Notes: generated by a model from the letters alone, not told the origin. Shown: positions 49,616-53,347, counted from the first letter of the stretch. The stretch is DNA of 64,000 bases from Lentisphaeria bacterium UBA1791 (GCA_002314455.1 DCFZ01000049.1:30362-94361); one strand, 5' to 3'. Translations and numbers: made by a program.

Positions 49616-51757
49616 TTACCGGATCTCTTTGTATTCATCGTCGTAAAGATTGCCGATCTCGTCAAGACGTTCCAATCGGTCTTCGCGGTCGGGATCGAGC
49701 CACAATTGCTGGAAGAGCATATTGCCGAAGCGGCTCTTCATACCGGTGTTGACGCCTTTGATGATCTTGCCGATGTCTTCGCGGACGTCGCTGCCGACCG
49801 CATCGTCGAAGTTCGAGTATTCGACGTGGGCGATCAAGACCAGCTGGCTCTGCTTGATTGATTCCGTTTCCGTCGAGAAAAGTCTGCCGATGATCGGCAT
49901 ATCCTTGAGGTAAGGCAGGCCCGCGGTGCCGCGCACCGCCTCGGATTTGCGCAAGCCGCCGATGACGAAGTCCTCACTGCTGTAGCTGATCTGAACCGTC
50001 GTTTTGTTTTTCGAGTTGCTGGTACGGGCGGAACCGTCGGAATTCCAGCCGAGCAGCGAAATGCTGTTGAGGTCAAAGGTGAGTTGCGCCGCCTTGCCGG
50101 TGACGACCGGCGTGACCGTGAGGTTGAATTGGAAACCGTCGGTCGGCATCGGGTACTGGATCCAGCCGTGGATGATGCCGGGCGCGGCGTCGACGGCATT
50201 CCAGTCGGTGTTGTAATAATTGGCACGGGTCGAAGTGCCATCGGCGGAAACATAGCCCGTCAACCATTTGGAAAGCGCACTCGTCGCGGTGTCGCCGCCG
50301 AGTTTGGCGATCGCGTCGTGCGTGAGGATCGTACCCGTCTGGGTGCCCATCACCCGCATCGTGTAACCCGCTTCGGCGAGGTAATAGAGTTTGCCCTGCG
50401 ACATCAGTTGCTGACAGGCGGCGGTCGCATAGGCGGCGGCTTCCGTCGCGCTCATACCCTTCATCATCGCGCTTTTGTAAGCGCTGGCGTAGGCGGTCGC
50501 GTAGTCGGTCATCCCCGTCTGATTGTAGGAATCGGCGATCATGCCGGAGGGCATGATTTTCGCCATGGATTCGCGCAGGATCGTGTCGGGATTCGGGTCG
50601 GTGTAGGTGAATTCCTGACACCCCTCGGCAATCGAAGTCGCCCCCGCCGTGTAGTAGGTGCGGTCGTAGAAAAATCCGCTGTTGACCTGAATGTTGCTCG
50701 GTTTGCGGTTCTGGGCGACGATGACGCCCTCGGCGAGACACTTCGCCTTGCCGATCGAAGTCATGAAATCGAGATACCGGGTGTTCCATTTGGGGTTGAA
50801 GTTCCAGTAGCTCGTGCGGTTGTTGCCGGAGGGCTGGACGCCGCTCGTAAAGAAGGTACCCCAGTTGCGGCGCACGACCGTGCCGGCGGAAAAGAAATCG
50901 ACGCCTTCGTTGTTTTTCCAGCTCTGGAAGTCGACGCCGATGCGGTCGTCGTTTTCGGCGTAGATCTCAAGAACGCGGTAGGAAATTTTGACTTCGGGGA
51001 TCTGCCGGTCGTATTTCTTGAGCATTTCCAGCATGTCAGCCCAGTTCCATTGCGGCGCCTTGACGATCAATGCGTTGAGTTCGGCGTCGACGAGCACCGT
51101 GCCGGGCGCGACGGCGAATTCCGGGTCGAGTTCCGAGGAACCGACCTTGATGAGCATATCGCGCAAATTGGCGGCGCGGCTGATGCGGGGAAAATAGACG
51201 TGCGCTTCGGCGTCGGGCAGATAGGTCAGCCCGGGGCGGTCGAGCGATTTGACGATGTTGTCGATGCCGCGCCCCTCTTTGGAATCCTTGAAGCGGTAGG
51301 CTTCGGCGGAAACGAGGAGCACACCGGTGCCGTCGGCGTATTGGACGGCGGTCACCTGCGCGGGGCTGGCGATGACGCTCTTGGCGCCGACGGCGGCTTC
51401 CAGGTAACTGCGCACGGCGTAGACGTCGGCGTGTTGCAACACATAGGGTTTGGTGATGACGTAGGGATCCGTGTTGTCGCGGATGACCTTGACTTCGCGG
51501 GTGCCTTCCTTGACGTCGATCTTCAGTTGCGCCTGAACATTGCTCGGCGCGTAACCGCCGGTCATTTCGTTGTTGGCGGAGCGCGGCGTACCGGGAATCG
51601 CCTGCGGCGTCAGATTGACGTCGCGCGTCTGTTGCGCGGGTACCGGCTGATAAAGGATCGGCTGCTGCGGTTTTTGCCGCTGCTGCGGGTTGTCGCATCC
51701 GGCAAAAATGAGCGCGGCACCGAGAGAGAAAGTGGTCCAGAAAAATTGCTGTTTCAT
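49616..51757 (-). CDS. Secretin-family outer-membrane channel protein, lipoprotein form (paralog A, 713 aa)
   Basis: Lipobox LIFAGC. N-domain-like segments YVLQHADVYAVRSYLEAAVG and ALIVKAP. Secretin domain start: PEVKISYRVLEIYAENDDRIGVDFQSW. Hallmark C-terminal block: VIGGLRKSEAVRGTAGLPYLKDMPIIGRLFSTETESIKQSQLVLIAHVE. Confidence 0.85.
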   Translation of the reverse strand: MKQQFFWTTFSLGAALIFAGCDNPQQRQKPQQPILYQPVPAQQTRDVNLTPQAIPGTPRSANNEMTGGYAPSNVQAQLKIDVKEGTREVKVIRDNTDPYVITKPYVLQHADVYAVRSYLEAAVGAKSVIASPAQVTAVQYADGTGVLLVSAEAYRFKDSKEGRGIDNIVKSLDRPGLTYLPDAEAHVYFPRISRAANLRDMLIKVGSSELDPEFAVAPGTVLVDAELNALIVKAPQWNWADMLEMLKKYDRQIPEVKISYRVLEIYAENDDRIGVDFQSWKNNEGVDFFSAGTVVRRNWGTFFTSGVQPSGNNRTSYWNFNPKWNTRYLDFMTSIGKAKCLAEGVIVAQNRKPSNIQVNSGFFYDRTYYTAGATSIAEGCQEFTYTDPNPDTILRESMAKIMPSGMIADSYNQTGMTDYATAYASAYKSAMMKGMSATEAAAYATAACQQLMSQGKLYYLAEAGYTMRVMGTQTGTILTHDAIAKLGGDTATSALSKWLTGYVSADGTSTRANYYNTDWNAVDAAPGIIHGWIQYPMPTDGFQFNLTVTPVVTGKAAQLTFDLNSISLLGWNSDGSARTSNSKNKTTVQISYSSEDFVIGGLRKSEAVRGTAGLPYLKDMPIIGRLFSTETESIKQSQLVLIAHVEYSNFDDAVGSDVREDIGKIIKGVNTGMKSRFGNMLFQQLWLDPDREDRLERLDEIGNLYDDEYKEIR

Positions 51758-51775
51758 AAGTTTGTGCCTCGCGGT

Positions 51776-53347
51776 TTATGGTTCATCTTCTTCGTCATCT
51801 TCGCGCAGCGGATCCTCAATCCGGCGAGAGATTCCCGTCGACATACTCTTGTCGGCGGGCATCCACGGCACATCAGGCGTAACGACTTCCGCTTCGGCGG
51901 TAACGATGACGTAGGTTCTTTCCTTGATGCTGGTCACGGTGCTGAAAAGGTATTTGATCACGGGGATGCGGCAGAGGAAGGGAATGCCGATTGTCTGCTC
52001 GACGTCGTTTTCCTTTTCGTAGATGGCGAGCACTTTTTCCTGCCCGAAACCGAGTGACGTGGCGCCGCAGATCAGCGTGGAGCTTTCCAGTTCCGAGCCG
52101 GTGTTGCCGCGTTCGACGATCGCCTTGAAAAAGATCGAATAGTCAAAGAGCACGCCGCCCTGCTTGGGAAGTTCATTTTGCATCTTGTAGTATTCCGGCG
52201 TCGAGGGGATGAAGCCGTTGGCGTCGACGGCGGCTTTGTCACTGCCGAGACAGATGAAAGGATTGACGATTTTTGCCTCAAGATTCGGCGGATTGGAGTG
52301 TTTTTCGCCATCTTCGTCTTCGGTGAAGCTTTTGCCGATGAACGAGCGGCCGAGGGTGTTTTTCTGAATGTTCTGGTATTCCGGCTGCATCGAAATGCGA
52401 TAGATGAAAGGAGCGGTATCCGGTTGCTTTTCCTGAATTTTTTTCAGCAGCGCATATTCTTCCTCGTTGGCGACGGGAGTGTTGATCATCACCATGCTCG
52501 CGTGGGCAACCGCCGTCGCGGTACCCGACTGTTGCAGACAGCGGATGAAGCTCATATCAAACTGCGGCGCGGTAAAGAAGCCGCCCAATCCCCAGCTGGT
52601 GGTGAAATTGAACGCATGTTGCGCCAATTGGCCGAGCATTTCGTTGAGTACCATTTCTCCCGCATTGTAGCCGGCGGAAAACAAATTGACGCCGGGGCCG
52701 TTTTTCCACGCGAGATAGTCGAAGCCCCAGTCCTTGAGGTCGCTGTCGCGCATCTGATAGTAGTTGATGCGCACTTGCACTTGCGGCACCGGGCGGTCGA
52801 GCCGTTCGACGAAGCTCAACGTGCGCTTGGCGGCGTCGCTCTGATCGCGCCAGAAAATCGTGTTGGTCTCGGTGTTGACGTAGGCGGCTCCGCTGGAACT
52901 TGCGATCGTCGCATTGATGATGTTGCTGAAATCGACGGCGGCGCGGTAGCGCGGCGAATAGGCGATTCGGGTCAATCCCGTGCCGCGGATCGGCGACGTG
53001 CCGGGTTTGCCGGGGCGGTCAAGCGCAAGGATGATCTCATCGACGTAGGGAATGAAATCGCTCCCCGTTGAAACGAGGAGCGCGCCGGTGCCGTTATTCT
53101 GGTCGGTGACGCGGCGTACATTGGAATACGTGTTGTAGCGTTTGATCGCGGAATTGACAAAGGGAAGCATCTCTTCGGCGGAAACGTATTTCAGCACATA
53201 GAGCTTGCTCTCAAAGTGGATCTGGGCGTCGTCCTGCACGAGGTGGATCGTACGCGAACTCTCGTCGGCGGCGAGCGCCGCGCCGCCGAGAAACAGCGCG
53301 CTGCACGATACCGCCAACAACGGTTTGGGTATGAAAGAAACTTTCAT
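51776..53347 (-). CDS. Secretin-family outer-membrane channel protein (paralog B, 523 aa)
   Basis: Signal peptide ...LGGAALA/AD. LYVLKYVSAEEMLPFVNSAI, ALLVSTG, PQVQVRINYYQMRDSDLKDWGFDYLAW. C-terminal block: LAIYEKENDVEQTIGIPFLCRIPVIKYLFSTVTSIKERTYVIVTAEAE. It is clearly paralogous to the downstream gene (aligned blocks LDRP..., ...FSAG). Confidence 0.85.
   Translation of the reverse strand: MKVSFIPKPLLAVSCSALFLGGAALAADESSRTIHLVQDDAQIHFESKLYVLKYVSAEEMLPFVNSAIKRYNTYSNVRRVTDQNNGTGALLVSTGSDFIPYVDEIILALDRPGKPGTSPIRGTGLTRIAYSPRYRAAVDFSNIINATIASSSGAAYVNTETNTIFWRDQSDAAKRTLSFVERLDRPVPQVQVRINYYQMRDSDLKDWGFDYLAWKNGPGVNLFSAGYNAGEMVLNEMLGQLAQHAFNFTTSWGLGGFFTAPQFDMSFIRCLQQSGTATAVAHASMVMINTPVANEEEYALLKKIQEKQPDTAPFIYRISMQPEYQNIQKNTLGRSFIGKSFTEDEDGEKHSNPPNLEAKIVNPFICLGSDKAAVDANGFIPSTPEYYKMQNELPKQGGVLFDYSIFFKAIVERGNTGSELESSTLICGATSLGFGQEKVLAIYEKENDVEQTIGIPFLCRIPVIKYLFSTVTSIKERTYVIVTAEAEVVTPDVPWMPADKSMSTGISRRIEDPLREDDEEDEP

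What the first reader, a model, noticed from the sequence alone, without database searches (positions are those of the whole stretch)
49616..53347. Tandem secretin paralogs, one a lipoprotein, each with a large divergent insertion in the secretin domain
Two adjacent genes (523 and 713 aa) both carry the secretin N-domain-like segments and the hallmark C-terminal block. That block reads (G)(I/L)P.L..(I/M)P(V/I)I..LFS.......(E/Q)...(V/L)(I/L)....(A/V)E. The genes align to each other, e.g. LDRPVPQVQVRINYYQMRDSDLKDWGFDYLAW against YDRQIPEVKISYRVLEIYAENDDRIGVDFQSW.

Most secretion systems use a single secretin, so hetero-pairs are uncommon.

Between the conserved '...A.V(I/M)..N' segment and the '(F.)L.VTP' segment, canonical secretins have a short linker. 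Paralog A instead has roughly 170 extra residues (about nt 50144-50665, rich in Y/A/T/G, e.g. TDYATAYASAYKSAMMKGMSATEAAAYATAACQQL). Paralog B has a different insert of about 120 residues.

Paralog A also ends in an acidic tail of about 65 aa after the secretin block.

The inserts could form an enlarged gate or cap suited to a very large substrate, but that is speculative.
Basis: partly seen in the sequence, partly recalled or inferred. Interest (0 to 1): 0.6.

Follow-up and report, generated by a model that had tools for sequence, protein, structure and literature searches.

The report
Paired secretin genes with enlarged gates
A gut Victivallales (Lentisphaerota) bacterium has two very different copies of an outer-membrane "secretin" channel gene that are always inherited side by side, both with a much enlarged central gate loop, which suggests but does not prove a channel built from two subunit types, unlike the single-protein rings of the solved secretin structures matched here.

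Summary
Two minus-strand genes, B (51776-53347, 523 aa) and A (49616-51757, 713 aa), are both real secretins: Pfam for A, hhalign A vs B 99.9%, Foldseek E about 1e-15 to GspD for both AF2 models. A has a lipobox. They sit in a four-gene operon: small lipoprotein, B, A, MarR-like regulator.

The inserts are real and lie in the Gate 1 loop that seals the pore. B carries about 50, plus a loop of 9-34 residues, not 120.

New here:
- B then A is adjacent in every one of about 95 Victivallales loci with enough sequence.
- Genomes hold up to five paralogous pairs.
- The A and B trees mirror each other (r 0.98).
- Both genes are under purifying selection (dN/dS 0.12-0.17).
- A's insert varies from 10 to 214 residues and holds a genus-specific helical cassette.

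I found no paper describing this. The same scan has already reported this family on at least four other genomes. A mixed A/B ring is the best reading (about 50%) but remains untested. The link to a giant substrate is not supported.

The parts
53862..53898 (-). Terminator-like hairpin of the upstream unit, overlapping a sigma-70-like promoter (TTGAAA, 17 nt spacer, TATATT) for the secretin operon
   Evidence: Consensus scan, (10 of 12 promoter matches; 7-bp stem followed by T6). Sequence read.
53380..53805 (-). S141: a 141-aa predicted lipoprotein (lipobox IISGC, Cys20) and first gene of the operon. Candidate accessory or pilotin-like partner, with no family assignment.
   Evidence: Translation. 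No Pfam or NCBIfam hit. A homologue lies upstream of B in nearly all class-1 loci. A lipobox is present in 43 of 65 homologues. Cys20 is invariant in alignment A3. The only structural hint is a non-significant NTF2-like match (E 0.3).
51776..53347 (-). Secretin paralog B (523 aa): plain signal peptide, two N-type beta-alpha-beta-beta-alpha domains (45-109, 125-183), a divergent secretin domain (187-489) and an acidic tail
   Evidence: dN/dS 0.16-0.17.
52265..52483 (-). Expanded Gate 1 of B (residues 289-361). Its length is fixed at 66 residues (289-354) in all 110 aligned homologues, and it is the most constrained part of B.
   Evidence: N289, T290, P291, N362 and P363 are invariant or nearly so. 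dN/dS 0.03-0.06. The NPF motif aligns to pIV N286-F288.
52157..52249 (-). Variable loop of B (residues 367-397), at the turn between the strand carrying NPF and the next inner-barrel strand. This is the site where the His-tag sits in PDB 7ofh.
   Evidence: Length is 9-34 residues across 110 homologues. Alignment to 7ofh.
49616..51757 (-). Secretin paralog A (713 aa): predicted liposecretin with a Pro/Gln-rich tether of about 75 aa, two N-type domains (100-172, 184-249), a secretin domain (253-648) and a helical acidic C-tail
   Evidence: dN/dS 0.12-0.14.
51695..51757 (-). Signal peptide and lipobox of A (MKQQFFWTTFSLGAALIFAGC, Cys21)
50135..50677 (-). Expanded Gate 1 of A (G361-G541, 181 residues, against 31 in f1 pIV)
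   Evidence: Alignments to GspD and pIV, hinge positions and the Gate 1 definition in PMC8563730. The insert is 10-214 residues across the family while the flanks stay at about 112 and 116 residues.
50378..50560 (-). Ala/Tyr/Met/Ser-rich helical cassette inside A's Gate 1 insert (residues 400-460). It is specific to this genus-level group.
   Evidence: Identity to 37 close homologues falls to 0.02-0.27 here. Alignment view. Among the nine homologues compared directly, only P0006 keeps it (score 191 against a shuffle maximum of 62). AF2 predicts helices with pLDDT 93-97.
49619..49813 (-). C-terminal tail of A (649-713): net charge -6, two predicted helices. It is S-domain-like in position only.
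   Evidence: The tail is 63 residues in nearly all close homologues and 9-98 in distant ones.
49123..49611 (-). MarR-like winged-helix regulator (162 aa). Its ATG lies 4 nt after A's stop codon, and it is the last gene of the operon.
   Evidence: Pfam MarR_2 E 9.4e-5, plus weak MarR and HTH_27 hits and NCBIfam MarR-type hits. Present downstream of A in most class-1 loci and upstream of B in class-2 loci.

Best explanation
This is a self-contained four-gene operon of Victivallales: promoter, small lipoprotein S141, secretin B, liposecretin A, MarR-like regulator. It encodes a specialised outer-membrane secretin channel made from two anciently diverged paralogs that work as one unit.

Most likely A and B co-assemble into a single mixed ring. 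A would supply the lipid anchor and an S-domain-like tail for outer-membrane targeting, possibly helped by S141. B has neither feature and would be carried in by A.

Both subunits have the full secretin topology but greatly enlarged Gate 1 loops: 181 residues in A and about 75 in B, against about 30 in characterised secretins. The central plug of the pore would therefore be a folded, multi-domain structure rather than a thin septum. Its tip in A is a fast-changing helical cassette.

The MarR-like protein probably autoregulates the operon.

The channel has no N0 docking domain and no inner-membrane machine encoded beside it. It presumably serves the only type IV pilus / type II secretion-like machine in this genome (two PilB/GspE ATPases, one PilC/GspF, a prepilin peptidase and a PilM-like cluster), or it acts as a stand-alone gated pore.

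Shown: both are secretins; the inserts lie in Gate 1; the pair is strictly adjacent, co-inherited and co-diverging; both are under purifying selection.

Inferred: the mixed ring, the role of S141, the regulation, the inner-membrane partner, and the cargo and its direction.
For: Secretin identity of both:
- by sequence.
- hhalign A vs B 99.9%, E 5.6e-34, covering nearly the whole of both profiles.
- the AF2 models match GspD, ExeD, InvG and PilQ at E 1e-13 to 1e-16.

Operon: promoter and terminator; gene gaps of 32, 18 and 4 nt.

Obligate pairing: in about 95 loci every one with enough sequence has B directly followed by A on the same strand, with a gap of -4 to +27 nt.

Duplicated as a unit:
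- Single genomes carry 2-5 pairs.
- Patristic distances in the A and B trees correlate at r 0.98, against a permutation maximum of 0.30.
- Paralog classes from the two trees agree, ARI 0.99.

Selection: dN/dS is 0.12-0.17 for both genes and 0.03-0.19 inside the inserts.

Asymmetry: a lipobox pattern occurs in A (73 of 119) and S141 (43 of 65) but rarely in B (10 of 119).

Gate 1 mapping.

Link to a pseudopilus machine: in one MAG the MarR-S141-B-A module sits directly upstream of, and co-directional with, gspL/C/D/E/F/G plus minor-pseudopilin-like genes. The window's own genome has a PilB/GspE pair, PilC and a PilD-like protein on C36, about 8 prepilin-like genes, and no canonical GspD.
Against: - There is no direct evidence that A and B are in one ring. 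Co-inheritance and co-divergence would also fit two rings that act together, or a ring plus an accessory protein.
- Multimer modelling could not be run.
- Fifteen copies of a 150-residue domain would probably not fit inside a canonical secretin lumen (my rough volume estimate, not computed with a tool). The ring must therefore differ from known ones in some way.
- The T2SS linkage is seen in only 1 of about 95 loci, and that operon has its own GspD.
- The mirror-tree signal is partly shared species history.
- The MarR assignment is below Pfam's cut-off.
Confidence: 0.5

Rival explanations
1. A and B form two separate homo-oligomeric secretin rings. They are co-transcribed because they serve the same pathway, for example different cargoes, growth conditions or envelope positions, but they are not one mixed channel.
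For: All the solved secretin structures matched here are rings of one secretin protein, by my own knowledge of those entries (chain lists). Each paralog has a complete secretin topology of its own. At 21-22% identity, shared strand-pairing interfaces are not guaranteed.
Against: Strict adjacency with tight or overlapping junctions in about 95 loci, and duplication only as a pair, are unusual for independent channels. B lacks a lipid anchor and an S-domain-like tail, and no second pilotin candidate is encoded.
Confidence: 0.2
2. B is a secretin-derived accessory protein rather than a pore subunit. It could be an assembly scaffold, or a periplasmic ring that docks under an A-only barrel, comparable in role to BfpG, TcpQ or RcpB-type partners of other secretins.
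For: B's secretin domain is the more degenerate one: Pfam 25.1 bits, below the cut-off, and its profile reaches only pIV in the PDB at E 9e-4. The strand before and the strand after the 367-397 loop are shorter in B than their counterparts in A. Small accessory proteins that complete secretin complexes are known, for example the BfpB-BfpG entry 9u5s listed.
Against: B keeps all eight predicted barrel strands, the C-terminal P(F/L)L..IP....LFS motif and the NPF gate motif under strong constraint. Its fold matches full-length secretins over about 490 alignment columns.
Confidence: 0.2
3. The enlarged gate or cap is an adaptation for exporting a very large substrate, such as the 4518-aa beta-solenoid protein encoded next door (34750-48306).
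Against: The module's neighbours differ in every other genome looked at: MetRS/MraZ, glycosyltransferases/MFS, thiamine genes/glycoside hydrolases, and a T2SS operon. The insert lies in the gate that closes the pore, not in a widened barrel. Insert length ranges from 10 to 214 residues among family members.
Confidence: 0.04
4. One copy is a decaying duplicate (pseudogene).
For: B is weakly recognised by the Pfam Secretin model.
Against: Both ORFs are intact here and in about 95 loci. dN/dS is 0.12-0.17. B has more than 100 invariant columns in 110 sequences.
Confidence: 0.01

Closest known systems
Type II secretion secretins GspD/PulD/EpsD/XcpQ (PDB 5wq8, 5zdh, 6hcg, 6i1x, 5wln)
   Same: They share the N3-type domain plus double-walled secretin barrel topology, the C-terminal VP.L..IP.LG.LF-type motif, and a helical tail after the barrel in A. 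They are the best sequence and fold matches.
   Different: The matched entries are rings of a single secretin protein. They have N0 to N3 domains for GspC docking, a Gate 1 of about 30 residues, and are encoded within the gsp operon. Here there are two obligate paralogs, no N0, a Gate 1 of 181 and about 75 residues, and usually no machinery genes nearby. TIGR02517 scores are 58 and 25.5 bits against a cut-off of 351.
Filamentous phage f1 pIV (PDB 7ofh)
   Same: Short architecture with an N-type domain followed by the secretin domain. It is the only PDB hit for the B profile. It provides the Gate 1 definition used here (G267-G297).
   Different: pIV is a phage protein forming a homo-15-mer with a 31-residue Gate 1. 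No phage genes accompany the A/B module.
Lipoprotein secretins: HxcQ of Pseudomonas aeruginosa, BfpB (PDB 9u5s) and TcpC of type IVb pili (my own knowledge for HxcQ and TcpC)
   Same: The secretin itself carries an N-terminal lipobox, as predicted for A. BfpB works with a small partner protein.
   Different: Those secretins are single paralogs, and their partners are not secretin homologues. No Gate 1 domain insertion is described for them.
Amuc_1098-family type IV pilus secretin of Akkermansia and other PVC bacteria (NCBIfam NF042912)
   Same: It is the other secretin type in this genome, and it is also present as a tandem pair (C16, 824 and 794 aa) next to Amuc_1101/1100/1099-like genes.
   Different: A matches NF042912 at only 25.5 bits against a cut-off of 750, and B does not match. 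The Amuc-type proteins have long TPR-like N-terminal regions and a complete, uninterrupted Pfam Secretin match.

Membership tests
Secretin superfamily (Pfam PF00263) | Match to the Secretin C-domain model above the gathering score | tested here: met
   A scores 54.9 bits against 27.5. B alone scores 25.1-26.7 bits, just below the cut-off. B joins the family through hhalign with A (99.9%) and through fold.
Secretin superfamily (Pfam PF00263) | Secretin fold: N3-type domain followed by long beta-hairpins of the outer and inner barrel | tested here: met
   AF2 gives eight long strands after two beta-alpha-beta-beta-alpha domains in both proteins. Foldseek to GspD, ExeD, InvG, PilQ and pIV gives E 1e-8 to 2.5e-16 at probability 1.0. 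TM-scores are low (0.2-0.6) because these are monomer models with free domain orientation.
Secretin superfamily (Pfam PF00263) | Forms a 12-15-mer gated pore in the outer membrane | not testable with these tools
   Needs biochemistry or cryo-EM.
T2SS secretin GspD (TIGR02517) | Score above the equivalog cut-off, an N0-N1-N2-N3 architecture, and a location in a gsp operon | tested here: not met
   Scores are 58 bits (A) and 25.5 bits (B) against 351. There are only two N-type domains and no N0. No gsp genes lie nearby in this window. A true GspD in a related MAG scores 309 bits.
Type IVa pilus secretin PilQ (TIGR02515) and MshL (TIGR02519) | Score above the family cut-off | tested here: not met
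   PilQ: 55 and 39 bits against 284. MshL: 64 and 18 bits against 250.
Liposecretin (self-piloting lipoprotein secretin, HxcQ/BfpB/TcpC type) | N-terminal signal peptide ending in a lipobox cysteine | tested here: met
   A has IFAGC with Cys21. The motif recurs in at least 73 of 119 close homologues. Actual lipidation was not tested.
Pilotin-dependent secretin | C-terminal S domain that binds a small outer-membrane lipoprotein | tested here: inconclusive
   A has a 65-residue helical tail, and a small lipoprotein gene is co-transcribed. S141 matches no known pilotin family, and binding cannot be tested here.
MarR family regulator (for 49123-49611) | Winged-helix MarR domain above the Pfam cut-off | tested here: inconclusive
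   MarR_2 scores 22.9 bits against 27, and HTH_27 scores 22.0 against 22.2. Several MarR-type NCBIfam models match weakly. Orthologues carry weak PF01047 or PF12802 hits.

The most novel reading that the evidence does not exclude
Victivallales build an obligately hetero-oligomeric secretin. A and B would alternate, or mix in a fixed ratio, in a single outer-membrane ring. Its central gate would be a folded plug formed by domain-sized Gate 1 insertions, with a rapidly diversifying tip. This two-gene unit has been duplicated into many specialised channels per genome, up to five pairs and 7-16 secretin genes in total.
Probability: 0.45. Interest if true: 0.8.

Novelty: new variant of a known kind. 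Interest (0 to 1): 0.6.

Why it matters
All the solved secretin pores matched here are rings of one protein with a thin gate of about 30-residue loops. A family in which two paralogs are always encoded, duplicated and diverged together would be the first natural candidate for a two-subunit secretin, at least in the literature I could search.

Both paralogs insert 50-150 residues into the gate loop. That would also be a new way of closing, or filtering at, such a large pore.

The family is abundant in gut and rumen Lentisphaerota, and homologues occur in the cultured species Victivallis vadensis. The mixed-ring question can therefore be tested directly by co-purification and cryo-EM.

It may also help explain how these polysaccharide-degrading bacteria, with 7-16 secretin genes per genome, move proteins across their outer membrane.

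Tried and rejected
- Pseudogene or decay: rejected.
- Link to the neighbouring giant beta-solenoid gene: rejected, because the flanks are not conserved.
- Phage origin (pIV-like): no phage genes are in the module.
- Membership of GspD, PilQ, MshL, SctC, HofQ or Amuc_1098 equivalogs: all scores are far below the cut-offs.
- General linkage to T2SS genes: homologues of the gsp genes of L103 were found next to the pair in only 1 of about 95 loci, and there are no GspD/L/C/G homologues in the window's genome by tblastn.
- Family assignment for S141: nothing in Pfam, NCBIfam or by PDB profile, apart from a non-significant NTF2-like hint.
- Tandem-repeat origin of the Ala/Tyr-rich cassette: only a 12-nt, two-copy repeat was found. 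The cassette is kept in P0006 and has a marginal resemblance to a cassette at another position in P0246.
- Literature searches for Lentisphaerae secretins, heteromeric secretins or two secretins found nothing relevant.

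
Full report
WHAT IS THERE

The finding's coordinates are exact. Two minus-strand ORFs occupy 51776-53347 (523 aa, called B here) and 49616-51757 (713 aa, called A), separated by 18 nt. 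The window is contig C60 of a 2.0-Mb, 95%-complete genome. Its closest relatives are gut and rumen MAGs labelled Victivallaceae, Victivallales or Lentisphaeria.

The two genes are the middle of a four-gene operon:
- A sigma-70-like promoter (TTGAAA, 17 nt, TATATT at 53890-53862) overlaps the terminator of the upstream unit.
- Next comes a 141-aa predicted lipoprotein, S141 (53380-53805, lipobox IISGC).
- B and A follow.
- Last is a 162-aa MarR-like winged-helix protein (49123-49611), whose ATG lies 4 nt after A's stop codon.

BOTH ARE SECRETINS

A passes the Pfam Secretin cut-off (54.9 bits, E 1e-14). However, only profile positions 58-162 match in one stretch (residues 543-642). An A-family profile hits GspD and PilQ structures at E 1e-22 to 1e-16.

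B is far more divergent. Its Secretin_N match is significant, but its Secretin match is only 25.1 bits. A 110-sequence B profile finds only phage f1 pIV in the PDB (E 9e-4).

B is still homologous to A across nearly the whole of both profiles (hhalign 99.9%, E 5.6e-34, 455 aligned columns).

The AF2 models (A pLDDT 70.6; B 72.0) each show two beta-alpha-beta-beta-alpha N-type domains followed by eight long strands. Both match GspD, ExeD, PulD, InvG, PilQ and pIV in Foldseek at E 1e-8 to 2.5e-16 with probability 1.0.

Neither protein reaches the curated cut-off of any named secretin equivalog (GspD, PilQ, MshL, SctC, HofQ, Amuc_1098). Neither has an N0 domain.

THE INSERTS ARE IN GATE 1

The cryo-EM paper on f1 pIV defines Gate 1 as the loop between the conserved hinge glycines G267 and G297. 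Its tip (275-289) seals the pore centre, and the loop pivots up and outwards on opening (PMC8563730).

The HMMER alignments place A's NSG361FFYD on the GspD hinge segment IVGEEVPV. They place A's YPMPTDG541FQFNLTVTP on NPFQTVDRKEVGIKLKVVPQ. Gate 1 of A is therefore 181 residues (nt 50135-50677) instead of about 30, which is about 150 extra.

In B the invariant N289-T290-P291 and N362-P363-F364 bracket the equivalent loop. NPF aligns to pIV N286-F288. That gives about 75 residues, or 45-55 extra.

B also has a separate loop (367-397) that is 9-34 residues long across the family. It lies at the turn where the 7ofh construct carries its His-tag.

The estimate for B (about 120) is too high.

I could not read the model coordinates. 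The placement therefore rests on sequence alignment plus the published definition.

HOW THE INSERTS EVOLVE

Across 81 A-family proteins the segments on either side of the insert keep almost constant length (about 112 and 116 residues). The insert itself ranges from 10 to 214 residues. The shortest members have a gate loop of canonical size.

Within the close orthologues the base of the insert is conserved. Examples are TYYTAGATSIAEG..EF.YTD.NPDTILRES and APGIIHGWLQYPM.

Of the nine homologues compared directly, only P0006 keeps them. Other orthologues carry different cassettes at nearby points. AF2 predicts this cassette as helices with pLDDT 93-97.

B's Gate 1 insert is the opposite. It is fixed at 66 residues (289-354) in all 110 sequences, has many invariant positions, and has the lowest dN/dS in the gene (0.03-0.06).

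Both genes are under purifying selection overall (dN/dS 0.12-0.17 against two genus-level relatives). Neither is a pseudogene.

THE PAIR IS AN OBLIGATE, DUPLICATED UNIT

I collected about 95 loci: 80 from a scan of one genome per species, 12 paralogous loci from three larger genomes and one other family, and three from contig look-ups.

In every locus with enough sequence, B is followed directly by A on the same strand. The junction ranges from a 4-nt overlap to a 27-nt gap.

A B-family profile found matches in 39 of 151 genomes of the phylum. All were in one order (families f1 21/23, f2 15/15, f3 1/5, f4 1/1), and none were among more than 100 other genomes searched.

Larger genomes carry two to five B-then-A pairs of different paralog classes.

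Trees built separately for A and B from 85 pairs mirror each other:
- Patristic distances correlate at r 0.98, against a maximum of 0.30 in 200 label permutations.
- Paralog classes cut from the two trees agree (adjusted Rand index 0.99 at two of the three thresholds tried, 0.54 at the tightest).
- Nearest neighbours of the within-genome paralogs are mostly the same loci in both trees.

Part of this signal is shared species history. The within-genome paralogs nonetheless show that the pair has been duplicated and inherited as a unit since an ancient A/B split (21-22% identity).

The window's class (class 1) has the layout S141-B-A-MarR. A second class has MarR-B-A. Other classes have only B-A, sometimes with an S141-like gene nearby.

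A strict lipobox pattern is common in class-1 A (73 of 119) and in S141 (43 of 65). It is rare in B (10 of 119). More distant A-family members mostly have plain signal peptides.

GENOMIC CONTEXT AND PARTNERS

The flanks of the module differ in every genome inspected. There is no conserved link to the 4518-aa protein next door.

The window's genome has only four secretin genes. The other two are also a tandem pair, on contig C16 (824 and 794 aa). They belong to the Amuc_1098 type and follow Amuc_1101 (PilM-like), Amuc_1100-like and Amuc_1099-like genes.

Elsewhere the genome encodes two tandem PilB/GspE ATPases, one PilC/GspF and a prepilin-peptidase-like protein on C36. It also has two PilT-like ATPases on C32 and about eight prepilin-like proteins. 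It has no canonical GspD, GspL, GspC or GspG detectable by tblastn.

In one Victivallaceae MAG (JAQUTL010000012.1) the MarR-S141-B-A module lies directly upstream of, and co-directional with, a T2SS-like operon. That operon encodes a GspL-like protein, a GspC-like protein, GspD (309 bits), GspE, GspF, GspG and four further proteins with prepilin-like N-termini. This hints that the pair works with a pseudopilus machine. However, it is 1 of about 95 loci, and that operon has its own GspD.

Five other Victivallales genomes carry 7-16 secretin-domain matches each, and all five keep the tandem Amuc_1098-like pair.

MECHANISM, WITH ODDS

The best-supported reading (about 0.5) is one outer-membrane channel made of both paralogs. 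A would bring the lipid anchor and a helical, acidic, S-domain-like tail, perhaps handled by the S141 lipoprotein. B has neither and would be incorporated alongside A.

The enlarged Gate 1 loops would form a bulky folded plug. A's changeable cassette would sit at the tip of the plug.

As a rough volume estimate of my own, not a tool result, fifteen copies of a 150-residue domain would not fit in a canonical secretin lumen, while about half as many might. This mildly favours a mixed ring or an unusual geometry.

Rivals:
- Two separate homo-oligomeric rings (0.2).
- B as a secretin-derived accessory ring or scaffold (0.2).
- Adaptation to the neighbouring giant protein (0.04).
- Pseudogenisation (0.01).

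The cargo, the direction of transport and the inner-membrane partner remain unknown.

COMPARISON WITH WHAT IS KNOWN, AND NOVELTY

The closest relatives are T2SS secretins and f1 pIV, but membership of every named subfamily fails.

Lipidated secretins (HxcQ, BfpB, TcpC) and secretins with small non-homologous partners (BfpG, pilotins) are known, from my own knowledge and from PDB entries listed.

I found no paper describing paired secretin paralogs, a hetero-oligomeric secretin, or a domain-sized Gate 1 insertion. The search library is limited to open-access papers and bioRxiv preprints.

Earlier reports of this same scan described the same family on other genomes and reached the same two-subunit idea (e1-4771674, e1-3841808, e1-4265264, e1-2972804). 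Those are not independent evidence.

New in this report:
- The mapping of both inserts to Gate 1.
- The contrast between A's hypervariable insert and B's invariant one.
- The quantified mirror trees.
- The second tandem pair in the same genome.
- The one T2SS-linked locus.

I class the finding as a new variant of a known kind, with interest 0.6.

LIMITS

- No model coordinates were available.
- The lipobox counts use a simple pattern.
- My ORF calling in the fetched loci is naive. The A and B calls were confirmed by phmmer.

Noticed in passing
Own genome, contig C16:9413-14293 (outside the window): A second tandem pair of secretin genes (824 and 794 aa) of the Amuc_1098 type follows Amuc_1101 (PilM-like), Amuc_1100-like and Amuc_1099-like genes. 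All four secretin genes of this genome therefore come as two tandem pairs. The Amuc-type tandem pair is also present in 5 of 5 other Victivallales genomes checked.
   Followed up: partly
Genomes G006, G013, G016, G046, G142 (same order): There are 7-16 Secretin-domain matches per genome, including canonical secretins of 480-560 aa and 760-920 aa besides the B-A pairs. This is an unusually large secretin repertoire.
   Followed up: no
L102/L103 (JAQUTL010000012.1, Victivallaceae MAG), L103:1-14193: The MarR-S141-B-A module is immediately followed on the same strand by a T2SS-like operon. It encodes a 210-aa Pro-rich protein, a GspL-like protein, a 201-aa protein, a GspC-like protein, GspD, GspE, GspF, GspG and four proteins with prepilin-like N-termini. 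This stretch therefore carries three secretin-family genes in a row of genes on one strand.
   Followed up: partly
L088-L098 (class-2 loci): In a second paralog class the MarR-like gene sits upstream of B (MarR-B-A) instead of downstream of A. No S141 homologue was detected in these loci.
   Followed up: no
window 53928-54353 (-): A 141-aa secreted protein is made almost entirely of six YRYSDGHQ(L/V/I)YY(I/R)RD repeats. It lies between the DUF349 gene and the secretin operon, in a separate transcription unit ending at the 53878-53898 hairpin.
   Followed up: no
window 50378-50560 (-), and P0246 and P0042 homologues: The Ala/Tyr-rich helical cassette of A weakly resembles cassettes inserted at a different sub-position of the Gate 1 insert in other orthologues. 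P0246 scores 70 against a shuffle maximum of 57. P0042 scores 50, which is not above its shuffles. This hints at shuffling of a small helical element.
   Followed up: partly
window 51487-51667 approx. (A residues 31-90): The segment between A's lipid anchor and its first N domain is conserved in sequence (TP.AIPG.P...N...TGGYAPSNVQAQLKI). AF2 nevertheless predicts much of it as unstructured (pLDDT below 50 for 15-56 and 67-78). It could be a docking peptide for a partner.
   Followed up: no
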